A DNA stretch of 64,000 nt. It comes from an uncultured Clostridia bacterium (lineage in GTDB: Bacteria > Bacillota > Clostridia > TANB77 > CAG-465). A model generated the notes under the pieces. It made no database searches and had not been told where the DNA came from. It saw only the letters and a list, made by a program, of their open reading frames with translations. Numbering within the stretch: position 1 is the first letter of the stretch; each line of letters begins with the position of its first letter. Of this stretch, positions 1 to 46,317 are shown piece after piece. The translations under genes were made by a program, and so were the position numbers. The DNA lies in the NCBI GenBank assembly GCA_944387375.1, contig CALXEQ010000001.1, positions 483 to 64,482 on the forward strand, given 5' to 3'.

Positions 1-3000
1 AAAATTGAAGGAGCAGCAAATGGAATAGAATTTCAACCAACTATAAAGGTTTGGCTAAATGGTAATTCATCGGAAGATACAAAAACTGTAATTCCAGAAA
101 AAACTATTATTAGTGCTGCACCCAGATATAATATACAATTAGTTAGAAATACGTCATGGGATCAAAGAGTAACAGTAGATTTTGGAAATGGTAATGAAAC
201 AGGAAGAATGTATAGTTATGGATTTACTATACAATTATATAATGATAATGTATCAAAAGGATTAAAAGGAATAGAATTTCCAAAAGATGACATAACTTTT
301 GATATAAAATTAAAAATGGAAAAATCTAATAATAATTCTACACAAGTAGAGGACATAACAAATGATAGTGACATAAGACTTTGGAATTATAAAGTAAATC
401 TTCAAGATAATGAGGGAAAAATACCAGGAAGACAAATGTTATTTAATGGTATACCGCATAGTGGTTTTTGTTATTGGATTCCATATGGAACTGGAACCAT
501 TGAGCAAATGCAAAATGATATGAACAGAGTATATGATTCTGGCGATATAAGTATGACACAGATTGACTCATCCACATTAAGAGTCGTTATAAATGGTTAT
601 AAATTTAATGGATTATATCCTAAATATAAAGGTGGTAATAAAGCAGGTGCATCAGAGTTCCAATATGATAAAAATGTGGGGTGTTTTGTTGCAGATGAAT
701 TTCAAATTTTTGTACCAGATAATGAGGCTAATTTAGATGAAAGTGAAAATTACTATTTAACAGTATCAAATGAAAATTTTAATGCTACTTCTATATCTGG
801 ACAAAAAGTTTCACAACAACAAAGTTTAAAAGATGATTCAGATACGACAAAACATATTATATATAAGCCTGGATTTTATGGAGAATTGATTTGGCTTTGT
901 GATGAAAATAGAATAACTATAGGTTCAGGAGCACAATATGGAGATTCTTCAGCAGTAAAAGGTGATATTATAACAGTTAATTCTGTATCACAAATGGGAA
1001 CTACAAATGAAGATAATGTTTATGAAGTAGATAAATTAGTTAAATTCAATGGAGAAGCTGTTGAACCAGTTAAATATAATGGGAAATATTTCACAACTAC
1101 GTCTTTTGATACAATGACATTTGATATATATTTTGTTACAAAAAAAGATGGTAAAAATTGGAGTTCACAAGAGGAAAGAAATAACGCTAATATAGAAGAT
1201 TTGAAAATATACGAAAATATGGAAGATATACCGGAAGGAAGCCTATGTATTGGAGTATATTATGAATCTAAAGATGGATATTGTATGTTACCAAATTCAA
1301 GTGATCAGAGAAGTATATATACATATTTAAAAATAAAAGATACTGCTAAAATTGGACAAACATATGGTTTTGTTCAAACAAGTAAGTATTGGACTGTAGA
1401 TTTAGATAGAAATATATATTCTCAAATTAGACTTAATGGATATGAAAATTATCCAGAACCAGTATATGAAAATAGTGGTGTAAACTATATTAAAACTGAA
1501 TATGATGAAAATGGCGAGATTGTGCCTGGAACACATAATGGATCATATATTGGAACTACTATTTTAGTATTAGGTGCAAAACAAAAAATCCAACAGACAC
1601 CTGTAGATATTAACAACAATGAAAAAATAAATTACGATCTGGGAAAAAATGAAAATATTGTTAGATATAAGATTGAGCCAAGTTTATATCAAGAAGAGGA
1701 AAATAAAGCTGAGGTTACAGGGGTAACGATAAAAATATCAGACATATTACCTTCTGGTTTAACATATGTACCCAATAGTTCAAATTATGGTGAGCCAGAT
1801 ATTAATAAAAATGATGATGGAACAACTACACTTATTTGGCATATATATGATTGTATATCAGATCACTTAATAGAACCATTATATTTTGAGGCGAGAATAT
1901 CAGAAAATTCACTAAATGGTATACAATATACTAATAAAGCTATAATTTTATCTGACAATGATAAGATTGGAAATACAGAGTTAAGTTTTAGAACATCAAC
2001 ATCTACAATACAAATAATAAATTTATCATCACATAGACTATATAAAACTACAGATATGTCTGTAGTAGAAAAAGGTAAACAAATACATTATACTATATCA
2101 TATAAAAATAATACTGATGAAACAATCTCAGACTTTCAGCTTTTAGATGTTTTACCATATAATGGAGATGGTAGAGGAACAGAATATATAGGAGATTATA
2201 TTTTAGATAGAATAGAAGTAATGCAGTTGGATGAAACAGGAAAAAAGATATCAAATGATAATTTAAAAATATTATACACGGACGATGAGAATGTAAGAAA
2301 AACAGTGGTAGTTAGTGATGATGATTTAGGAGAAGGTTGGAAAGAAATAAAAAGTGAAAATGTAAATGATAAGGCTACAGCAATAGTAATAAAAGGAGAG
2401 ATAGCACCACAGGGGAGTTTAGAGGTAAATATATATTTACCTGTTAGTAATAATAGTGGTTTAAATAAATATGTAAATAATGCAACAGTACAAGTAGATA
2501 AAGCTACAGAAGAGATGGTAACAAGTAATGTTAATGTACAAGTAATAAAAAGACAAATAGAAGGAAAAGTGTGGGAAGATAGTAATGAAAATGGAATAAA
2601 AGATGAAGAAGAAATTGCAATAAGCAATATAGAAATGATACTAACAGATGAATTAGGAAATCAAGTGGAAGATGTAAATGGAAATATAATATCAAGTATA
2701 AGAACAGATGAAAATGGATATTATAAATTTGAAAATTTACCGATGGGAACATATTATGTAAAGATCAACATACCAAATAATGAATATGAACTAACAGAAA
2801 AAGAGGTTGGAACAAATAGTGAAATAAATAGTAAGTTTAATAAAGATACGCAAGAAACAGATGTGATAACAAAATTAAATGGAACAGATTTACCAGAGCT
2901 TACAGTATCAAATGTGAATGCTGGATTAATAAGTAGAAAAACAAGCGTTATGGTAAAACATGTAGATGAAAAAGGGAATAATTTGATAGAGCCAGAGACA

Positions 3001-3567
3001 ATAGATGGAAAAGTAGGAGATGAGTATCAAACACAAGCAAAAGATTTTGAAGAATATGAAGTAAAAGAGATAATAGGAAATGAGATAGGACAAATGACAC
3101 CAGAACAAATAACAGTAACATACGTATATAAAAAGATAGAAGGAAGTATAGAGATAACAAAAATAGATAAAAAAGACAATAGTAAGTTGATAGAAGGAGC
3201 AACATTTAGAATAGAAAAGTTAAAAGATAATGGAGAAGTAGATGAGGAGTTCTCATATCAAGAATTAACAACAGATAAAGAAGGAAAAGTAAAATTTGAA
3301 GGATTAGAAGTAGGAAAATATAGAGTAGCAGAGACAAGAGCGCCACAAGGATATGAATTGTCAAAAGATAGTATAGAAGTAGAAATAACAAAAGAAAATA
3401 GATATATAACATTAACAGCAGAAAATGAATTAAAACTAGTATTACCAGAAACAGGTGGTATAAATAATACAATAATTTTTGTAATAATTGGATTTTTAGC
3501 AATGATCATATCTTTAATTATTGCAAAATCTGAAAAAATTAAAAAATATTATATAAGACACAAATAG
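1..3567 (+). CDS. 5'-truncated LPXTG cell-wall-anchored adhesin (putative pilus tip adhesin) with SdrD-B/CnaB-like, MucBP and SpaA-type isopeptide domains
   Basis: Frame 1 is open from nt 1, with no stop before the annotated Met at 208, so the gene begins upstream of the window. The C-terminus is LPETGG, then a hydrophobic stretch, then a KKYYIRHK charged tail: a classic sortase sorting signal. Internal EGKVWEDSNENGIKDEEE...YYVKI matches an SdrD B-like repeat. VMVKHVDEKGNNL...VTYVYKK is MucBP-like. The terminal KDGKVKFEGLEVGKYRVAETRAPQGY is a SpaA-like pilin domain with an E-box. Confidence 0.8.
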   Translation, partial: KIEGAANGIEFQPTIKVWLNGNSSEDTKTVIPEKTIISAAPRYNIQLVRNTSWDQRVTVDFGNGNETGRMYSYGFTIQLYNDNVSKGLKGIEFPKDDITFDIKLKMEKSNNNSTQVEDITNDSDIRLWNYKVNLQDNEGKIPGRQMLFNGIPHSGFCYWIPYGTGTIEQMQNDMNRVYDSGDISMTQIDSSTLRVVINGYKFNGLYPKYKGGNKAGASEFQYDKNVGCFVADEFQIFVPDNEANLDESENYYLTVSNENFNATSISGQKVSQQQSLKDDSDTTKHIIYKPGFYGELIWLCDENRITIGSGAQYGDSSAVKGDIITVNSVSQMGTTNEDNVYEVDKLVKFNGEAVEPVKYNGKYFTTTSFDTMTFDIYFVTKKDGKNWSSQEERNNANIEDLKIYENMEDIPEGSLCIGVYYESKDGYCMLPNSSDQRSIYTYLKIKDTAKIGQTYGFVQTSKYWTVDLDRNIYSQIRLNGYENYPEPVYENSGVNYIKTEYDENGEIVPGTHNGSYIGTTILVLGAKQKIQQTPVDINNNEKINYDLGKNENIVRYKIEPSLYQEEENKAEVTGVTIKISDILPSGLTYVPNSSNYGEPDINKNDDGTTTLIWHIYDCISDHLIEPLYFEARISENSLNGIQYTNKAIILSDNDKIGNTELSFRTSTSTIQIINLSSHRLYKTTDMSVVEKGKQIHYTISYKNNTDETISDFQLLDVLPYNGDGRGTEYIGDYILDRIEVMQLDETGKKISNDNLKILYTDDENVRKTVVVSDDDLGEGWKEIKSENVNDKATAIVIKGEIAPQGSLEVNIYLPVSNNSGLNKYVNNATVQVDKATEEMVTSNVNVQVIKRQIEGKVWEDSNENGIKDEEEIAISNIEMILTDELGNQVEDVNGNIISSIRTDENGYYKFENLPMGTYYVKINIPNNEYELTEKEVGTNSEINSKFNKDTQETDVITKLNGTDLPELTVSNVNAGLISRKTSVMVKHVDEKGNNLIEPETIDGKVGDEYQTQAKDFEEYEVKEIIGNEIGQMTPEQITVTYVYKKIEGSIEITKIDKKDNSKLIEGATFRIEKLKDNGEVDEEFSYQELTTDKEGKVKFEGLEVGKYRVAETRAPQGYELSKDSIEVEITKENRYITLTAENELKLVLPETGGINNTIIFVIIGFLAMIISLIIAKSEKIKKYYIRHK

Positions 3568-3575
3568 TGTCTTAT
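3553..3575 (+). terminator. Weak hairpin overlapping the adhesin stop codon with no T-run; possible attenuator allowing readthrough into the pilin gene
   Basis: 9-bp inverted repeat ataagacac / gtgtcttat around the TAG stop. It is followed by atataat rather than a T-tract. Confidence 0.3.
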
Positions 3576-3665
3576 ATAATATTAAGATTTTAATAATAAC
3601 TATTGAAAAATTTTGTCGATTTGTGATATTTTTATAATGCGAAATATATAAGAGGAGGAAAATGT

Positions 3666-5423
3666 ATGAAAAGTAAAACAAAAAAGTATAGTATATTTTT
3701 TGTTGTTATGGTTATGGTATTAGTATCAACTTTAGCAGTAAAAGTAAAAGCTGCTGATCCTACAACAGGATCACTTACTATAGTTGCAAAGGAACAACAA
3801 AATAATACTACAAATAATGATCCTTTAAAAGGGGTAGAGTATACTTTATATAAAGTAGATGAAACTGTTGAAACTACAACACAAGCAGAAAGTTATATAA
3901 CTAGCAATTCAGTTACTGGAACAGCAAAAACAACAGGAGAAGATGGAACAGTTGTTTTTGATAACATAGATCTTGGCAGATATTATGTTAAAGTAACTAA
4001 TGTACCAGATGGTGTTGTAGCAACTGAAGATTTTATAGTAGAATTACCAAGAACTAATTCAACAGGTACAGGTTGGGATTATGATATAACAGTTGAGCCA
4101 AAAATAAAAACAGCTTTTGGTAATTTGGAGTTTACAAAAACAGATGCAAATGGTACTCCAATGAATGGAGTTGAATTTAAACTTCAAGTAAAGCAAAATA
4201 ATGGAGCATGGGTAGATTATGCTGCTCAAACTAATTTTACTACAAACAGTGAAGGTAAAATTACATTAAATAATTTACCAAGTTATGATTATAATTCAAA
4301 TACAGCAACTTATAGATTAGTTGAGGTATCAGTACCAGATACTGGATATATTATTAATAATAAACAATTAGCTACTTTAGTATGGAAAGTAAATAATGAC
4401 GGAACAATAACTATAGAAAATGAATCATCACTAGATAGTGATTTATTTACAGTTACAAAAGACGCAAATGTTACAAAAGTAACATATAAAAACGAAAAAC
4501 CAGAAGTAGAGAAAAAAGTTAAAAATGGTGGAGAATATTTAGATATGGTTGGCGCATTTTTAACAGATACTGTAGAATTTAAAGTAACAGCAGGTATACC
4601 AATGCAAATTGCGGATATGAAAACATATAAAATTACAGATAATATTCCACAAGGATTAACTTTAAATAGAGAAAGTATAAAAATTGAAGCAACAACAGCA
4701 GACAGTAGTGAGACAGTACCAACAGATGTATATACATTATCTCAAACAGGATTAGAAGTTACATTTAATCCACAAAAATTAGCTGAAAATAATTATAGTG
4801 CAATAATAATAACTTATACTGCAAAACTAAATATGGAAGAAGCAGTAATAGGTGGAGATGGTAATGTAAATACTGTAACACTTGAATATACAAACAAAGT
4901 TGCAGAAAATGGAGACGAAGAAGATAAAACAACAACTACAGATACTGCACAAGTTCATACAGGAGCGTTATCAATAGAAAAAGTAGAAAAAGGAAATGTT
5001 GAAACAAAGCTTGCAGGAGCTAAATTTAAAATAGCTACTACAGAGCAAAATGCAAAAGATGGAATATTTGTAAAAGATGAAACAGGAGCAGATATTGAAG
5101 TAGAAACAAATGATCAGGGTCAAGCAGTAATAGAAGGATTAAAATATGCAGATAATGAAGCTGATACATCATATTGGCTAGTTGAAACACAAGCACCAAG
5201 TTACATAGAAGATGGAGTAACAAAATATTACAATTTATTAAAGGATCCTGTAGAAGTACAAGTAGGAAAGACAACTCATGAAAGTGCTGTACAAATTGAA
5301 AATGGTAAAGGTTTTGATTTACCAGCAACAGGTAGTATAGGACTTGCAATATTTACAGTAGTAGGTATAGCAGTAATGGCAGGTGCAGTAGTTTTAAATA
5401 AAAAACAAAAAGTACAAGAATAA
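3666..5423 (+). CDS. LPXTG-anchored pilin-like surface protein (putative major pilin subunit)
   Basis: Strong SD agaggagg precedes the start. N-terminal signal peptide (MKSKTKKYSIFFVVMVMVLVSTLAVKVKA). Pilin-motif-like VTYKNEKPEV, E-box-like YWLVETQAPSY, and C-terminal LPATGS with a hydrophobic segment and KKQK tail. Confidence 0.75.
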   Translation: MKSKTKKYSIFFVVMVMVLVSTLAVKVKAADPTTGSLTIVAKEQQNNTTNNDPLKGVEYTLYKVDETVETTTQAESYITSNSVTGTAKTTGEDGTVVFDNIDLGRYYVKVTNVPDGVVATEDFIVELPRTNSTGTGWDYDITVEPKIKTAFGNLEFTKTDANGTPMNGVEFKLQVKQNNGAWVDYAAQTNFTTNSEGKITLNNLPSYDYNSNTATYRLVEVSVPDTGYIINNKQLATLVWKVNNDGTITIENESSLDSDLFTVTKDANVTKVTYKNEKPEVEKKVKNGGEYLDMVGAFLTDTVEFKVTAGIPMQIADMKTYKITDNIPQGLTLNRESIKIEATTADSSETVPTDVYTLSQTGLEVTFNPQKLAENNYSAIIITYTAKLNMEEAVIGGDGNVNTVTLEYTNKVAENGDEEDKTTTTDTAQVHTGALSIEKVEKGNVETKLAGAKFKIATTEQNAKDGIFVKDETGADIEVETNDQGQAVIEGLKYADNEADTSYWLVETQAPSYIEDGVTKYYNLLKDPVEVQVGKTTHESAVQIENGKGFDLPATGSIGLAIFTVVGIAVMAGAVVLNKKQKVQE

Positions 5424-38551: not shown

Positions 38552-38938
38552 ATGAAGGTAATAACTATAAAGCAACCTTGGGCAACATTAATTGTAGAAG
38601 GATATAAGAGATTTGAATTTAGAAGTTGGAAAACAAATTATAGAGGGGATATACTTATTCATGCTGGAAAAGGAATAGATAAAGAGGCAATGGAGCGTCT
38701 TAAAAAATATTTACCAGATGAAATACCTATTGGAAAAATAATAGGCAAGGCAACTCTTACAGACTGCGTTCCAATGAGTAAAGATTTTGCAGATATGCTA
38801 TCAAAAGAAAATAATGATATTTATACAACTCATTCTTTTTCTAGAAATTATGGATTTAAACTTGAAAATGTAGAAAAGCTAGATAATCTAATTGAAATTA
38901 GAGGACAACTCGGACTTTGGAATTACAATAATAGTTGA
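38552..38938 (+). CDS. ASCH (PUA-like) domain protein
   Basis: MKVITIKQPWATLIVEGYKRFEFRSW is the ASCH signature. Confidence 0.65.
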   Translation: MKVITIKQPWATLIVEGYKRFEFRSWKTNYRGDILIHAGKGIDKEAMERLKKYLPDEIPIGKIIGKATLTDCVPMSKDFADMLSKENNDIYTTHSFSRNYGFKLENVEKLDNLIEIRGQLGLWNYNNS

Positions 38939-39066
38939 CATAAAATTAAAAACGTGTTATAATAACTACAGACGTTTTTTTACTTTATATTAGTACTTAA
39001 TAGTCTAATAGGGAATATGATTTCTTAGTCAAAAGGATAGTATTCTAGAAAAAAGGAGTTGAAAAA

Positions 39067-39582
39067 ATGAACAGTTTTGTTGGTAAAGCTATAAGCAATA
39101 CCAAGAAAATGGTACCAGACTATTGGAAAAATACTTGCAAGAACCGTTTAAACGGTGGAGTTGGTAGCGTATATGACCAATTTTCAAGCGTTGAAGAACT
39201 TGAGAAAGCTCTTTTAAATGCTGATTGGACTGAAACTACACATCCTGACGTTATGCCGGGTTGCAGAGTGTTTAAGGCTCACTTAGAGGGAAGATTTGGA
39301 ATCGTTAAGATCTCAGATCTACCAGACGATGCTAAGATCGTTGCTGATGATAGTAAGCATACTGGTAAAGTTGCTATGACTGTCAAAGGCATAAGAGGAA
39401 AAATAGTACCTGATACTTATCTAATTGTAGGTAAGGAAGATGGTGTAGACGTTGTGTTTACATTTCATCCAGGTGAACCTATTCGTCCTTCTGTGATTGA
39501 AGTGTCTGAAGTTAGTCATGGTTCTATAGTCTCTAAAGCGAAAGCTAAGAGTTTAGGCTTTGACTATGCTAAGATAGTTTAG
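39067..39582 (+). CDS. Hypothetical protein with anomalous GC content (about 40-48% against about 27% background), possible horizontally acquired orphan
   Basis: Good SD aaaaaggag. Clear ORF using GC-rich codons (ccg, ggc, cgt) that are rare elsewhere in the window. No family recognised. Confidence 0.6.
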   Translation: MNSFVGKAISNTKKMVPDYWKNTCKNRLNGGVGSVYDQFSSVEELEKALLNADWTETTHPDVMPGCRVFKAHLEGRFGIVKISDLPDDAKIVADDSKHTGKVAMTVKGIRGKIVPDTYLIVGKEDGVDVVFTFHPGEPIRPSVIEVSEVSHGSIVSKAKAKSLGFDYAKIV

Positions 39583-39755
39583 TCTGTCTGGTGGCGGTAA
39601 AATGGCTCTGACATAGATAGATATTTAATATTTATTAGTATGTCCCGCGACTAATCCCGAGCTCTACCTTTTTTAAGGATTAAATTAGACCTCTATATGG
39701 TTTGACACCCATAATATGTTTATTTTATGAACTAAAAAAGCTAGTTATTAACACA

Positions 39756-39788
39756 GAAGATGAATTAAAATTCATCTTTATTTTTTTG
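39756..39788 (+). terminator. Rho-independent terminator closing the GC-anomalous islet
   Basis: gaagatgaatt / aattcatctt stem with an aaaa loop, followed by a tttatttttttg run. Confidence 0.65.
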
Positions 39789-39866
39789 TCTTTTAGATTT
39801 TGTATACTATTTAATTGAAAAATTGTAAATTATTATATATCATATTAGTATAGGAGGGGAAGATAT

Positions 39867-40562
39867 ATGAATATGAAAAATGTGCTAATAGGAGTATTTG
39901 CTACAACAACAGTAATATTTGCTGGATTTACAATATATTTGGGAATAACTCTATCAAATGAAGTCGAAAAAAACGCTCAACTTGAAGCACTAACAGCTCA
40001 AGAAGAAGTAGAAGTTAAAGAAGAAACAGAAAGTCAAAATATTAATGAAGAGGAATATAGTAGAATTTTTAAGTTCTCAGATGAAATTAATGTAGTTAAT
40101 GTACAAGATAGAAATTATACAACAATAACAAGAAGCTCATCTGCACCACTTGGTGTAGGAGCTACTATAGAAAATGATAGTATTGTATGTTTGTCATTAG
40201 AAAAAATAGAAAATGATATGTCATTTGATGTTGAAAAATATGATTATTATCCTAGAATTGATTTTGGAGATAGAAAAGTTCAAAATGTATATAATACAGG
40301 ACCAGGTGGAACAGGTTATGGATTTTTTATATTATTTTTAATGGAAGATGGAACAGTTGAATATATGCCACTTGCATATGCTATAGCTAATAATGATTTT
40401 AGGAGTTATGGAAAGATAGAAGGAGCAGAAAATATTGTAGATATATTAGATGCTAGTGCACCACTTTATGGTACGACCACTTTACTAGTTCAAAAAGACG
40501 GTACAGCATATGATATAGGAGACCAACTAATGAGGATAATCGAGCAGTATCCAGATAGGTAA
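39867..40562 (+). CDS. Hypothetical membrane-anchored protein
   Basis: SD ggagggg. An N-terminal TM helix followed by a soluble domain. No family recognised. Confidence 0.5.
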   Translation: MNMKNVLIGVFATTTVIFAGFTIYLGITLSNEVEKNAQLEALTAQEEVEVKEETESQNINEEEYSRIFKFSDEINVVNVQDRNYTTITRSSSAPLGVGATIENDSIVCLSLEKIENDMSFDVEKYDYYPRIDFGDRKVQNVYNTGPGGTGYGFFILFLMEDGTVEYMPLAYAIANNDFRSYGKIEGAENIVDILDASAPLYGTTTLLVQKDGTAYDIGDQLMRIIEQYPDR

Positions 40563-42176: not shown

Positions 42177-42278
42177 TTTATTTATTACAAAAATGTTACT
42201 AAAAAAAGTATACTAAAACATATAATTTAGTTGATAATTCAAAGAAAATGTAGTAAAATATGCATGAAAGGTGATTTT

Positions 42279-43322
42279 ATGATAGGAATTACAAAAAGTG
42301 AATTTGAAAACTCATTATTAAGACAAGATGTAGTTGAATATTACCTTAATATGTCAAAAGATGAGATTGAATATAAATTTGGAAAAGAAATATCTGACAT
42401 GGTAGGATATAATCAAAATAATCCACATGAGTGCTATAATTTATTTGAACATACTTTAAGAACTGTTAAGGATATTCCTACAGGTGAATTGTCAAATGAA
42501 GAAATAAAATTATTGAAAATATCAGCGTTTTTACACGATATTGGAAAACCAGCTGTTGCACAAGAAGTATTTGGAAAAATCACTTATTTTGGAAGTGAAA
42601 TAGAGTCATCAAAAATGGCAAAGAATTTTTTAGAAGAACTAGGATATTCTCAAGAAGACATACAAAGAATATGTTTTTATATACTACATTTAGAAGATTT
42701 TATGTATTATAAGGATGATTTACCATATTATTATGATCATCATGCTTTTATAAAGAAAATATCACCTCAAACTATTGCAGAGCAAATGATAGAAAACGAA
42801 TATAAATTTATATCAATAGGGTTAGATAATTTACAAATTAAAGCGGTGTGTTATGCTTTAGTTAGAAATGAAGAATGGCCACTTTTTGAGGATGAAAAAG
42901 GAAATGAAGTGAAGATAGCGCCTGTTGATATGCAGGATTTAAAATGCAGACTTGTTGATATAAAAAATGAGTATACTCCTACATTAAAAGATTATAAAAT
43001 GCTTGTAAAGCTTAGTATAGCAAATTATAAAGCACAAGCAAAAAGATCTTATCAAAGAGGAAAGCTAATAGCTACTCGTGCTGAAAAAGTAAGAGTTGCA
43101 GCTATAATAGAGGGAGTATTACCTGAAGCATATAAAGTATTTAAAAATTCAATGGAAAAATATCAGATGGACGGAGCTTTAACTCAAGAATTGATTGATG
43201 CAACGAATGAATATAATGAGCTTGTTGCTATGAATCAAATAGAACAGATGAGAGAAGAAAATGCTAAAAATTTAATGAACAAATTTAATGATATGAAAAT
43301 ACGATTAACTATGAAATCTTAG
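42279..43322 (+). CDS. HD-domain phosphohydrolase
   Basis: LFEHTLRT...LHDIGKP is an HD motif. Start set at the ATG at 42279 after aaaggtga. Confidence 0.65.
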   Translation: MIGITKSEFENSLLRQDVVEYYLNMSKDEIEYKFGKEISDMVGYNQNNPHECYNLFEHTLRTVKDIPTGELSNEEIKLLKISAFLHDIGKPAVAQEVFGKITYFGSEIESSKMAKNFLEELGYSQEDIQRICFYILHLEDFMYYKDDLPYYYDHHAFIKKISPQTIAEQMIENEYKFISIGLDNLQIKAVCYALVRNEEWPLFEDEKGNEVKIAPVDMQDLKCRLVDIKNEYTPTLKDYKMLVKLSIANYKAQAKRSYQRGKLIATRAEKVRVAAIIEGVLPEAYKVFKNSMEKYQMDGALTQELIDATNEYNELVAMNQIEQMREENAKNLMNKFNDMKIRLTMKS

Positions 43323-43331
43323 GAGGATATT

Positions 43332-43733
43332 ATGGTAGAAGAATATTATAATTTACCTATGGTAAGAGAAAATTTTGTCTCAAGAAATTTAAAAAAATTG
43401 TTTCAAGGCTTTTTTAATATAAAAAGAAAAAAAAGAGACCAAAAAAGAGCACAAATATTAGCACAAAGAGCAAAACAAAATAACAAATTTAGTGATTCTG
43501 TTAAAGTTAGTGGTGTGCATCAAAGAGTAGATATTTATGAGTTTCAAAATATGTATAGACGTGGTGATATATCTATTGAAAATATGAATGAAGATCAAAA
43601 ATATGCTTTAATAAAACTATTTGAAATGCAAAATGAGAGATTAAGAGCAAGTATACAAGAACATAAGAAAAATACAGAAGCATATAATATGGAAGTTCAA
43701 AGATTAAAAAAAGAATTAGATATAATTGGATAA
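43332..43733 (+). CDS. Hypothetical coiled-coil protein
   Basis: 133-aa charged ORF with SD aggagg. Confidence 0.45.
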   Translation: MVEEYYNLPMVRENFVSRNLKKLFQGFFNIKRKKRDQKRAQILAQRAKQNNKFSDSVKVSGVHQRVDIYEFQNMYRRGDISIENMNEDQKYALIKLFEMQNERLRASIQEHKKNTEAYNMEVQRLKKELDIIG

Positions 43734-45328: not shown

Positions 45329-45417
45329 AATATATTTAGTATAGCAAAAATTTACATAAAAAACAATATTAAAAATAAGTATAATTTAATAAATTTTGTA
45401 AATAATATTTTTAGGAG

Positions 45418-45633
45418 ATGAGAAATATGAGAAAAGGTGATGATAGAATAAAATGTAATGTAGCAAAATGTGTACATAATTGTATAGATGATTCAACATG
45501 TAGATTAAATTCAATAAAAGTATGTGAATGTATGAATGATAAAAATAGTAAAAAAAGAGAAGATCAAACTGCATGTGGTTCTTATGAGTACTCTGGAAAT
45601 TTGAATCAATCGGAGATACTAGGAGGCAATTAA
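45418..45633 (+). CDS. DUF1540-like small cysteine-rich protein
   Basis: CNVAKCVHNC...CRLNSIKVCEC, a repeated Cys pattern typical of DUF1540. SD aggag. Terminator immediately downstream. Confidence 0.6.
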   Translation: MRNMRKGDDRIKCNVAKCVHNCIDDSTCRLNSIKVCECMNDKNSKKREDQTACGSYEYSGNLNQSEILGGN

Positions 45634-45662
45634 AAGCTCACTTCAAATGAAGTGAGTTTTTG
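45634..45662 (+). terminator. Rho-independent terminator
   Basis: aagctcacttca / tgaagtgagt stem plus TTTTT. Confidence 0.65.
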
Positions 45663-45669
45663 GTATTAT

Positions 45670-46119
45670 TCGGATATTATCATATAAACATTGTGATTTA
45701 CTGTTCTTGAAGGATAAACACGTGTTACTGTTGTTAAGAATTTTACTTTTTCAACGACACAATCATATAATACATATTTGTACTTATATTTTAGATATTC
45801 GTTTTCAAATATTTCTTTATATACATCATCTATTAATAATGTGTTTTCATATTCACAATCTTTAAACTTTGACTTTACAGGAATAAATTCTCCAACATAT
45901 TTTAGTATGGGATTTATTCGTATTATTGATTCTTTATTAAAATAATTTCCTAAATGAAGTATTTTTAGTCCGACCTCTTTTGTCTATATCAAAGTTTATT
46001 TGTTCTAAATCTGTGTCGCTGTCTGCCTTTCTTGCAAGATATATTAAATTATCCTCATTTTTAATTTGATAAATTTCAAGTCCGTCTAATTTACGTGAGT
46101 TATTTAAAAATTTTCTCAT
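45670..46119 (-). pseudogene. Frameshifted gene: 60-codon N-terminal ORF (46119..45937) continues in another frame for about 90 more codons
   Basis: The minus-strand ORF has a good SD (aggaaggag) and stops at 45937. An open frame without a Met (NKESIIRINPILKYVGEF...VYPSRTVNHNVYMIISE) continues directly downstream in a different frame. Confidence 0.45.
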
Positions 46120-46317
46120 AATTAACTCCTTCCTGACACGTATTAATGTGTCTATAAATTATTATATATTTCCATATACATGAGTATTATATCACAGTTA
46201 CTGTATTATGTAAAGCAGACAACAAATATATTTAATTATTTAAGATAGATACTTGAAAAAATTAGTTGCATAAGTACTAAAATAGTAATATAATAATATA
46301 GATAAAGGAGAAAAAAT

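What the first reader, a model, noticed from the sequence alone, without database searches (positions are those of the whole stretch)
39067..39790. Roughly 700-bp GC-anomalous islet: orphan 171-aa gene plus a GC-rich noncoding tail ending in a strong terminator
Local GC is about 40-48% against about 27% elsewhere. Codons ccg, ggc and cgt, unusual for this genome, are used. No repeats, integrase or tRNA flank the region. The roughly 175-nt segment after the stop (tctgtctggtggcgg...gtcccgcgactaatcccgagctctacc) is also GC-rich. It lies between the gene and a clean intrinsic terminator at 39756-39788, as if it were a co-transcribed structured 3' UTR or small RNA. The compact, horizontally acquired look suggests a toxin, immunity or anti-defence type gene.
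Basis: seen in the sequence. Interest (0 to 1): 0.55.

Follow-up and report, generated by a model that had tools for sequence, protein, structure and literature searches.

The report
Unknown gene plus novel structured RNA
The GC-rich patch is not a recently imported islet: it is a conserved, strongly promoted unit in a group of uncultured gut Clostridia, made of an uncharacterised protein gene followed directly by a previously undescribed, pseudoknotted ~165-nt structured RNA.

Summary
The composition anomaly is real but milder than stated. The gene 39067-39582 is 38.6% GC against 26.6% for the window. Its GC3 is 0.273 against 0.124 (z = 7). The first 88 nt of the tail are 40.9% GC, the richest intergenic stretch in the window.

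The "recent horizontal islet" reading fails. The gene sits at the same place and diverges in step with its neighbours in about 10 related low-GC Clostridia. No mobility genes, tRNA or flanking repeats are present. A perfect sigma-70 promoter precedes it.

The "structured 3' RNA" reading is strongly supported. Across 13 distinct sequences, 38 pairs in six helices, one of them a pseudoknot, are 96% paired. Twenty-two pairs show compensatory changes, against 5-7 in slid controls. No Rfam 15 family matches.

The protein has no Pfam, NCBIfam, PHROG, PADLOC, PDB or BFVD relative, despite a pLDDT 94.6 model. Its family has about 690 clusters. Members are fused to HD domains and to a CCA-adding/repair enzyme, and lie next to PARG in megaphage-like contigs. 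A homologous HD gene lies 2.6 kb downstream in the window.

My best reading is that the protein and RNA act together in RNA-end or nucleotide processing. That function is inferred, not shown.

The parts
38935..38963 (+). Sigma-70 promoter: TTGACA, 17 nt, TATAAT, with a TG extension.
   Evidence: It scores 12 of 12 consensus matches with TG, the best site in the region. A TTGACA or TTTACA -35 hexamer and a (near-)TATAAT -10 hexamer lie upstream of every ortholog; the TG extension is present in most, not all.
38971..39066 (+). Conserved 5' UTR. It has a possible hairpin (GGAATAT 39012-39018 with GTATTCT 40-46), an invariant GTCA at 39028-39031, and an AGGAG ribosome-binding site at 39054-39058.
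   Evidence: Alignments A4 and A5. The hairpin has only weak covariation support (7 pairs, 1 compensatory).
39067..39582 (+). Gene X: a 171-aa protein of an uncharacterised family. It is the GC-richest ORF of the window.
39583..39744 (+). Novel structured RNA core of about 162 nt, with helices a, b (pseudoknot), c, d, e1 and e2.
   Evidence: Alignment A3 and pair counts; covariance model R1; no Rfam match.
39594..39648 (+). Helix a (GCGG 39594-97 with CCGC 39645-48), stacked on variable hairpin c (39610-15 with 39639-44).
   Evidence: Helix a is 100% paired, and 3 of its 4 pairs have compensatory changes (pair types include GC, UA, AU and CG). Helix c is 100% paired, with 3 of 6 compensatory.
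39604..39663 (+). Pseudoknot helix b (GGCTC 39604-08 with GAGCT 39659-63). It crosses helix a.
   Evidence: It is 98.5% paired, and 3 of 5 pairs have compensatory changes, in L010, L067 and L068.
39664..39744 (+). 3' domain. Helix d (39664-75 with 39733-44) carries a C.C mismatch conserved in 12 of 13 sequences. It encloses e1 (39686-90 with 39718-22) and e2 (39694-700 with 39709-16). The e2 loop is TTTGACAC at 39701-08, in which TGAC is invariant.
   Evidence: Helix d has 9 of 11 pairs compensatory. e1 is 92% paired and e2 is 90% paired.
39755..39787 (+). Intrinsic terminator: an AT-rich hairpin (AGAAGATGAAT / ATTCATCTT) followed by a U-run.
   Evidence: A hairpin plus T-run is seen in most orthologs, with different stems in L068 and L074 (read by eye).
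42231..43322 (+). HD-domain protein of 363 aa, the likely functional partner of X.
   Evidence: It is homologous to the HD half of the natural HD-X fusion in L013 (BLASTP 5e-38). It has a Pfam HD match. Its best family and PDB matches are to the HD region of CCA tRNA nucleotidyltransferases. It lies within 3.7 kb downstream of X in all 16 clade loci long enough to show it.

Best explanation
SHOWN.
- Positions 38935-39787 form one vertically inherited transcription unit in a genus-level group of uncultured, ~26% GC gut Clostridia.
- Its parts, in order, are a consensus promoter, a conserved 5' UTR, gene X, a ~162-nt RNA and an intrinsic terminator.
- The RNA starts 3-8 nt after the stop codon. 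It folds into a pseudoknotted 5' domain (helices a, b, c) and a 3' domain (d, e1, e2).
- The GC excess has two ordinary sources. One is a Gly/Val/Pro/Ala-rich protein whose codons shift from A-ending to T- or C-ending (GCT, GGT, ACT, GTT, CGT, GAC, AAC, ATC). The other is the G+C-rich helices and junctions of the RNA in an AT-rich genome.
- X belongs to a large unannotated family of about 690 clusters at 50% identity. The family is repeatedly fused to HD phosphohydrolase domains. One member is fused to a complete CCA-adding/repair enzyme. In megaphage-like contigs, X lies next to PARG and tRNA arrays.
- The window encodes the matching HD protein 2.6 kb downstream.

INFERRED (about 35% likely).
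- X acts with the HD protein on nucleic-acid (RNA 3'-end) or nucleotide/ADP-ribose-type substrates.
- In this clade the co-transcribed RNA is its dedicated partner: a substrate, scaffold or regulator. It is made in cis from the same strong promoter, either as the 3' part of the mRNA or after processing.
For: - Composition.
- Vertical inheritance and synteny.
- Promoter.
- RNA structure: 96.1% of 492 cells are paired and 22 of 38 pairs have both-side changes. None of 500 shuffles reaches this. Slid controls give 34-52% paired and 5-7 such pairs.
- RNA conservation: 35% of ungapped RNA columns are invariant across 8 species, against 14-15% of four-fold degenerate sites.
- Strand: several pairs are G-U, which only fits the + strand, and the reverse strand scores at most 24.5 bits with the covariance model.
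- X-RNA adjacency is kept in 14 of 14 ortholog loci while both flanks vary.
- Protein links: fusions of HD, or of a CCA-adding enzyme plus HD, with X; homology between the window HD protein and the fused HD; an HD gene downstream of X in every clade locus long enough to show it; PARG, NMNAT-Nudix and tRNA arrays near X in viral contigs.
Against: - No experiment or transcript data support any of this.
- The RNA was found only next to close orthologs. Model R1 found none in 57 loci of more distant X homologs. X therefore works without this RNA elsewhere, and the RNA could be functionally unrelated to it.
- X is not basic, so nothing marks it as an RNA binder.
- The PARG and NAD-related contexts point as much to nucleotide or ADP-ribose chemistry as to RNA ends.
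- Part of the GC3 excess may be a residue of old horizontal transfer rather than expression-linked bias. GC3 varies from 0.14 to 0.27 among orthologs.
Confidence: 0.6

Rival explanations
1. The RNA is an autonomous trans-acting small RNA or protein-sequestering RNA. It is merely co-transcribed with X, or processed from its 3' UTR, and has no functional tie to X.
For: - It ends in its own terminator.
- X homologs elsewhere lack it.
- 3'-UTR-derived sRNAs are an established class (general knowledge).
Against: - X and the RNA stay strictly adjacent in 14 of 14 loci while both flanks change.
- No separate promoter is evident between the coding sequence and the RNA (read from the sequence; scan).
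- The RNA has six helices and a pseudoknot, more than typical base-pairing sRNAs.
Confidence: 0.3
2. The RNA is a cis-acting catalytic or ligand-sensing element in the 3' UTR. It could be a self-cleaving ribozyme that trims the mRNA, or an aptamer for a nucleotide such as ADP-ribose, NAD or a 2',3'-cyclic NMP.
For: It has a pseudoknotted core with many invariant unpaired nucleotides: UAARAU, GACU, CUCUAUAUG and UGAC. An alternative pairing, GGUA with UACC, is possible in 90% of cells.
Against: - No match to any ribozyme or riboswitch family in Rfam 15.
- I found no sequence in the RNA complementary to the left arm of the terminator, so there is no obvious expression platform (by eye).
- The alternative pairing shows no compensatory change.
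Confidence: 0.15
3. One reading: a recently acquired horizontal islet carrying a toxin, immunity or anti-defence gene.
For: - GC and GC3 are outliers.
- The family is GC-richer than its flanks in most of 44 loci. Extremes are L077 (58% against 30%) and L076 (38% against 21%).
- Family members occur in viral contigs.
Against: - Same locus, and divergence in step with neighbours, across related species.
- No integrase, tRNA or flanking repeats.
- No significant PADLOC or PHROG hit.
- The codon shift is towards T- and C-ending codons, not a uniform GC rise.
Confidence: 0.08
4. The tail is only a terminator plus generic stabilising hairpins. Its apparent conservation comes from the close relatedness of the genomes.
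For: The genomes are 72-82% identical over the whole region, intergenic DNA included. The window sequence folded alone has only z = -2.7.
Against: - 22 pairs have compensatory changes, against 5-7 in slid controls.
- The pseudoknot helix b has three compensatory changes, each seen in a different sequence.
- Loops and junctions are invariant at twice the rate of four-fold degenerate sites.
Confidence: 0.05
5. The RNA is a riboswitch-like leader controlling read-through into the downstream HD operon.
For: In L074 the order is X, RNA, terminator, HD, 133-aa gene.
Against: - In the window, L001, L067, L069 and L071, a convergent UDG gene and other variable genes lie between the RNA and HD.
- No antiterminator pairing was found by eye.
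- The downstream genes have promoter-like sites of their own.
Confidence: 0.05

Closest known systems
Orphan structured ncRNA motifs found as GC-rich intergenic regions in AT-rich Firmicutes (Breaker-laboratory GC-IGR approach; examples are raiA and OLE). This comparison rests on my own knowledge.
   Same: A GC-enriched, covariation-supported, multi-helix RNA with conserved unpaired nucleotides in a low-GC genome, and with unknown function.
   Different: It matches no Rfam 15 family. It lies in a 3' UTR directly after a stop codon. Its distribution, as far as seen, is one narrow clade.
3'-UTR-derived small RNAs of enterobacteria, such as CpxQ and SroC (my own knowledge).
   Same: It is encoded at the 3' end of an mRNA and shares that mRNA's terminator.
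   Different: Those RNAs are short, simply structured base-pairing RNAs. This one is about 162 nt with six helices and a pseudoknot.
Protein-plus-adjacent-RNA modules, such as TnpB or IscB with omega RNA, and Rsr-Y RNA-RtcB RNA-repair operons (my own knowledge).
   Same: A structured RNA is encoded immediately beside the protein gene. The family has links to RNA-repair-type enzymes through CCA-adding enzyme and HD fusions.
   Different: There is no RuvC, Ro or RtcB homology. There are no transposon ends and no Y-RNA or tRNA-like match. No binding has been shown.
Multifunctional CCA-adding/repair enzyme (NCBIfam NF008137). Its HD domain has 2',3'-cyclic phosphodiesterase and phosphatase activities (my own knowledge). 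CCA-adding enzymes serve in tRNA repair in jumbo phages (PMC7824862).
   Same: P0110 is this enzyme with an X domain added at its C-terminus. The window's HD protein best matches the HD region of CCA enzymes.
   Different: The window has no nucleotidyltransferase domain near X. X itself has no detectable similarity to any part of CCA enzymes.

Membership tests
Any Rfam 15 RNA family (riboswitches, ribozymes, SRP, 6S, tmRNA, Y RNA, sRNAs) | A covariance-model score at or above the family's gathering threshold | tested here: not met
   No hits at gathering score in the 64-kb window. In permissive scans of 1001, 221 and 236 nt, only chance-level hits appeared (E >= 0.36, far below gathering score).
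Conserved structured RNA (generic) | Base pairs maintained by compensatory substitutions beyond controls | tested here: met
   96.1% of cells paired; 22 of 38 pairs compensatory; 0 of 500 shuffles reach this; slid controls give 5-7 pairs.
H-type pseudoknot | Two helices with crossing strands, each supported independently | tested here: met
   Helix a (3 of 4 pairs compensatory) and helix b (3 of 5) cross each other.
Intrinsic terminator | A stable hairpin immediately followed by a U-run at the end of the unit | tested here: met
   Hairpin 39758-39777 plus a U-run. It is seen in most orthologs. The consensus scan missed it because it has fewer than 3 G-C pairs.
Transcription-terminating riboswitch | Lies in the 5' leader of the regulated gene on the same strand | tested here: not met
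   It follows gene X. The next gene downstream varies, and in several species it is a convergent UDG.
Transcription-terminating riboswitch | Ligand binding and a mutually exclusive antiterminator | not testable with these tools
   No complement to the left arm of the terminator was seen by eye. Ligand binding needs in-line probing.
Horizontally acquired genomic islet | Atypical base composition and codon use | tested here: met
   GC z = 4.1 and GC3 z = 7.1.
Horizontally acquired genomic islet | Patchy presence among close relatives, or divergence out of step with flanking genes | tested here: not met
   It is present at the same site in all related loci fetched (every one was fetched through X, so loci lacking X could not appear). 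Its nucleotide identity tracks that of UvrC, ASCH and HD.
Horizontally acquired genomic islet | Mobility signatures: integrase, tRNA target, flanking repeats | tested here: not met
Known anti-phage defence or toxin-antitoxin protein families | A significant match to a PADLOC, Pfam or NCBIfam model | tested here: not met
   The best PADLOC match has E = 0.023 (DrmC, 13 bits). There is no Pfam, NCBIfam or PHROG hit.
Type III toxin-antitoxin (RNA antitoxin) | Tandem RNA repeats upstream of the toxin gene | tested here: not met
   The RNA lies downstream of the gene and is single-copy. No tandem repeats were found.
tRNA or tRNA-like element | A cloverleaf detected by ARAGORN | tested here: not met
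   No genes were called in the window.
HD phosphohydrolase partnership (X with a CCA-enzyme-type HD) | X and HD fused in some genomes, and encoded as neighbouring genes in others | tested here: met
   Fusions in L013, L014, P0041 and P0110. The window HD protein is homologous to the fused HD at 5e-38. HD lies within 3.7 kb of X in 16 clade loci.

The most novel reading that the evidence does not exclude
X, the CCA-enzyme-type HD protein and the co-transcribed pseudoknotted RNA form a previously unknown RNA-centred system. Two forms are possible. It could be an RNA-end healing or modifying ribonucleoprotein whose own 3' RNA is the substrate, scaffold or sensor. Or the RNA could be a new ribozyme or aptamer class sitting in a 3' UTR.
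Probability: 0.2. Interest if true: 0.85.

Novelty: new variant of a known kind. Interest (0 to 1): 0.62.

Why it matters
- It adds a well-supported candidate to the short list of complex bacterial RNAs of unknown function, and in an unusual position: directly after a stop codon.
- It defines a sizeable protein family of about 690 clusters, found in bacteria, CPR bacteria (Saccharibacteria) and megaphages. The family has no annotation and no structural relative. Domain fusions tie it to HD and CCA-type RNA-repair enzymes and to ADP-ribose/NAD genes in phages. That makes its biochemistry directly testable.
- It is a caution for genome scanning: a GC and codon outlier in an AT-rich genome can be an old, resident gene plus a structured RNA rather than a fresh horizontal acquisition.

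Tried and rejected
1. SRP Alu-domain resemblance. GUGG ... GUCCCA-CGACUCGG-GAGCU recalls human 7SL. The topology differs and no SRP model matches.
2. An alternative helix GGUA/UACC extending helix b. It is 90% paired but has no compensatory change. The substitutions in L072 and L073 are compensated in helices a and d instead. I kept it only as a possible alternative conformer.
3. TTGACA in the e2 loop as the -35 of an internal promoter. The flanking stems covary, and the spacing to any -10-like hexamer is not conserved.
4. Stop-codon read-through or frameshift stimulated by the pseudoknot. The downstream frame stops after 5 codons.
5. A T-loop-like GUUCGAA in helix c. It occurs only in L069; the other species have a variable hairpin there.
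6. An antiterminator for the terminator. No complementary segment was found.
7. The RNA elsewhere. Model R1 found no copy in 57 distant-homolog loci. There was no blastn hit in 50,697 phage genomes and no pattern hit in IMG/VR. A literature search for the sequence strings gave nothing relevant.
8. X in cultured phages. tblastn with three family members found nothing in INPHARED.
9. RNA-level constraint inside the coding sequence as the cause of the GC excess. Overall synonymous identity is no higher than in the neighbours (0.655 against 0.68-0.77). Four-fold sites are only slightly more conserved (0.62 against 0.50-0.59).
10. Structure-based annotation of X. The best Foldseek hits have E >= 0.02 and TM <= 0.29, with a faint NTF2-like flavour. 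A profile search against PDB sequences gave E >= 0.48.

Full report
**Observation.** The ORF at 39067-39582 (+, 171 aa) is the GC-richest of 53 ORFs in a 26.6% GC window. Its GC is 38.6% (z = 4.1). By codon position the values are GC1 0.51, GC2 0.37 and GC3 0.273, against a mean GC3 of 0.124 with sd 0.021 (z = 7.1).

The first 88 nt after the stop codon are 40.9% GC. That exceeds all 697 other 88-nt intergenic windows, whose maximum is 39.8%. The whole tail to 39755 is only 32.9%. There is no tRNA, no meaningful flanking repeat and no integrase. The neighbours are UvrC, an ASCH protein and a UDG-family glycosylase. A hairpin plus U-run lies at 39755-39787.

**Not a recent islet.** The exact protein occurs on many contigs of the same species, always between ASCH and the downstream genes. 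Genome and assembly searches recovered orthologs at 62-96% amino-acid identity in MAGs titled "uncultured Clostridia bacterium" and in unlabelled assembly contigs, all about 24-29% GC. In nearly all of them the local context is the same.

The nucleotide identity of X to each relative (69-96%) tracks that of UvrC, ASCH, the HD gene and the 133-aa gene, so inheritance is vertical. What varies is the neighbourhood:
- The 231-aa gene at 39867-40562 is present in most contigs of this species and in L007, but absent from L001.
- The UDG and the 315-aa gene come and go.
- L071 has extra genes, including a peptidase S41 gene, between ASCH and X.
- X and its tail stay together in 14 of 14 loci.

**Why it is GC-rich.** The protein is enriched in Gly, Val, Pro and Ala. 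Its codons shift from A-ending (A3 is 0.28 against 0.47) to T- and C-ending:

| Codon | Gene X | Window background |
|---|---|---|
| GCT | 0.90 | 0.32 |
| GGT | 0.60 | 0.34 |
| ACT | 0.67 | 0.36 |
| CGT | 0.40 | 0.06 |
| GAC | 0.46 | 0.10 |
| AAC | 0.50 | 0.10 |
| ATC | 0.27 | 0.01 |

(Fractions within each amino acid.)

From my own knowledge, this pattern resembles the preferred codons of highly expressed genes in low-GC Firmicutes. It fits the perfect TTGACA-17-TATAAT promoter with a TG extension at 38935-38963 (12 of 12 matches) and the AGGAG ribosome-binding site.

GC3 is above background in every ortholog, from 0.14 to 0.27. Synonymous sites are not unusually conserved overall, so RNA structure inside the coding sequence is not the cause.

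Family-wide, the gene is GC-richer than its flanks in most of 44 loci. Some cases are dramatic: L077 has 58% GC and GC3 0.72 in a 30% GC locus, behind a host-type promoter, and L076 has 38% against 21%. The family as a whole has therefore moved horizontally. An old transfer may contribute here, but it is not recent.

**The tail is a structured RNA.** The noncoding block after the stop codon is conserved in all close orthologs. On a MAFFT alignment of 13 distinct sequences that was not fitted to any structure (A3), I defined six helices from the sequence:

| Helix | Window coordinates | Note |
|---|---|---|
| a | 39594-97 / 39645-48 | |
| b | 39604-08 / 39659-63 | crosses a, so it forms a pseudoknot |
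| c | 39610-15 / 39639-44 | base of a variable hairpin, stacked on a |
| d | 39664-75 / 39733-44 | C.C mismatch conserved in 12 of 13 sequences |
| e1 | 39686-90 / 39718-22 | |
| e2 | 39694-700 / 39709-16 | loop UUUGACAC, with UGAC invariant |

The pair counts are strong:
- 96.1% of 492 cells are paired.
- 22 of 38 pairs have changes on both sides.
- None of 500 shuffles reaches these values.
- When partners are slid by 1-3 columns, only 34-52% of cells pair and 5-7 pairs are "compensatory".

Helix a alone shows GCGG/CCGC, GUGG/CCAC, GUGA/UCAC, GUAG/CUAU and GAGG/CCUC. Helix b has three compensatory changes, in L010, L067 and L068. RNAalifold independently found helices a, c, d, e1 and e2.

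Because the genomes are 72-82% identical overall, plain conservation is weak evidence. Even so, 35% of ungapped RNA columns are invariant in 8 species, and 29% of unpaired columns, against 14-15% of four-fold degenerate sites. Several pairs are G-U (for example 10 of 13 sequences at the first pair of helix b), and the reverse strand scores weakly with the covariance model, so the RNA is on the + strand. Most species carry an additional small hairpin (P0) before helix a. The window species lacks it.

**No known RNA family matches.** Rfam 15 gives nothing at gathering thresholds over the window. Permissive scans of the region and of an ortholog give only chance-level hits. ARAGORN finds nothing.

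A covariance model built from A3 (R1) finds one copy in the window (39569-39749, 163 bits) and one after each close ortholog (120-182 bits). It finds none in 57 loci encoding more distant X homologs. The RNA pattern is also absent from 50,697 phage genomes and from IMG/VR.

**What the RNA is not.**
- It is not a leader for a downstream gene. The next gene varies, and in several species it is a convergent UDG.
- I found no antiterminator complement to the terminator.
- The alternative GGUA/UACC pairing has no covariation.
- No separate promoter is apparent between the coding sequence and the RNA, so co-transcription from the strong X promoter is the simplest reading. This is an inference.

**The protein.** X has no significant hit in Pfam, PHROGs, NCBIfam or PADLOC, nor by profile against PDB sequences. 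An AlphaFold2 model built on 36 homologs is confident (pLDDT 94.6, pTM 0.86; three N-terminal helices followed by a seven-stranded sheet). Even so, it has no structural neighbour in the PDB or BFVD (best E 0.02, TM at most 0.29).

Invariant residues include R27, S34, W54, H59, D95, K97, T99, H134 and S142. They sit in motifs THPDVMPGCRVF, DDxKxTG and TFHPGEPxxPS. This set looks more like an active site or ligand pocket than a purely structural core; that is my inference.

An exhaustive profile search finds 690 clusters at 50% identity. Longer members are informative:
- P0110 is a complete "multifunctional CCA addition/repair protein" (NF008137, 4e-67; PolyA_pol head, RNA-binding and HD domains) with X at its C-terminus. 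It sits in a phage-like contig.
- P0041 and the ORFs in L013 and L014, from other Clostridia, are HD-X fusions.
- P0105, at 3049 aa, has four X copies and a PolyA_pol_RNAbd domain.
- Others carry DUF4116 or pentapeptide repeats.

The 363-aa HD protein in the window (42231-43322) is homologous to the HD half of the L013 fusion (5e-38). Its best family and PDB matches are to the HD region of CCA tRNA nucleotidyltransferases. A homolog lies within 3.7 kb downstream of X in all 16 clade loci long enough to see it, and directly after the X-RNA unit in L074. This fusion-versus-neighbour pattern argues that X and HD work together.

In megaphage-like viral and metagenome contigs (8 loci), X follows a microbial-type PARG gene, by 2 nt in L055. 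Where arrays are seen (6 of those loci), it lies 2-4 kb from tRNA arrays. In L063 an NMNAT-Nudix gene follows it. CCA-adding enzymes in jumbo phages are interpreted as tRNA-repair functions (PMC7824862).

**Interpretation.**
- Shown: a resident, strongly promoted unit made of a 5' UTR, gene X, a novel pseudoknotted RNA and a terminator; and a genomic link between X and a CCA-type HD phosphohydrolase.
- Inferred: X acts on RNA 3' ends or on nucleotide/ADP-ribose-type substrates together with HD. In this clade the co-transcribed RNA is its substrate, scaffold or regulator. I put this at about one in three.
- Main rival: an autonomous sRNA that merely shares the transcript.
- Less likely: a 3'-UTR ribozyme or aptamer; a plain stabiliser; a leader for the HD operon; or a fresh horizontal toxin/anti-defence islet.

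**Verdict.** The RNA is a new family of a known general kind, conserved structured bacterial ncRNA. It sits in an unusual position and is coupled to an unannotated, structurally orphan protein family.

Noticed in passing
window 38971-39066 (invariant GTCA at 39028-39031) and 39701-39708: The 5' UTR is conserved among orthologs. Its only invariant tetranucleotide, GUCA, is complementary to the invariant UGAC in the e2 hairpin loop of the 3' RNA. The complementarity runs to 6 bp in the window (GUCAAA with UUUGAC) and 4-6 bp in other species. This could be a 5'-3' kissing contact. Covariation at the flanking positions is inconclusive.
   Followed up: partly
L077 315-854 (and the GC-rich stretch to about 1430): In a 30% GC contig, the X homolog is 58% GC (GC3 0.72) and sits directly behind an AT-rich TTGACA-17-TATAAT promoter. 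A GC-rich 141-aa ORF of unknown function lies on the opposite strand. This looks like recent horizontal transfer of the family.
   Followed up: partly
L011-L066, L076, L077 (44 loci): Across the family, the gene is GC-richer than its flanking DNA in most loci. In several the difference is 10-28 percentage points.
   Followed up: partly
L025, L034, L035, L038, L055, L056, L061, L062: In related megaphage-like contigs of up to 424 kb, X immediately follows a microbial-type PARG gene, with a 2-nt gap in L055. In six of these loci it lies 2-4 kb downstream of tRNA arrays (Ser, Gln, Met, Ile, Tyr, Cys); no tRNA was found in L025 or L034. A 650-671-aa ORF with no Pfam hit follows it.
   Followed up: partly
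P0105 (3049 aa): A giant protein with four copies of the X domain and a PolyA_pol_RNAbd domain. Its origin and the rest of its architecture are unknown.
   Followed up: no
window 39867-40562: A 231-aa ORF with an N-terminal hydrophobic segment and no family match. It is present in most contigs of this species and in L007, but absent from L001 and from the other related species. It is a strain-variable insertion right after the X-RNA terminator.
   Followed up: partly
window 39667 and 39741 (alignment A3 columns 133 and 207): A C.C mismatch inside helix d is conserved in 12 of 13 sequences, while the pairs around it covary. It may be a recognition or tertiary-contact site.
   Followed up: no
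orthologs L010, L067-L074, just 5' of helix a: An extra small hairpin (P0) with different stems in different species (GTGCAA/TTGCAC, GTGTATT/AATACAC, GTATAT/ATATAC). It is present in most species but missing in the window species and in L008.
   Followed up: partly
window 43332-43733: A 133-aa ORF with no family match that always directly follows the HD gene (14 loci). It may be a third component of the X/HD system.
   Followed up: partly
window 45329-46317: A 989-nt stretch (23.7% GC) with no ORF of 100 aa or more and no Rfam hit.
   Followed up: no
window 208-5423: Two large LPXTG/SpaA-type pilin or adhesin genes open the window.
   Followed up: no
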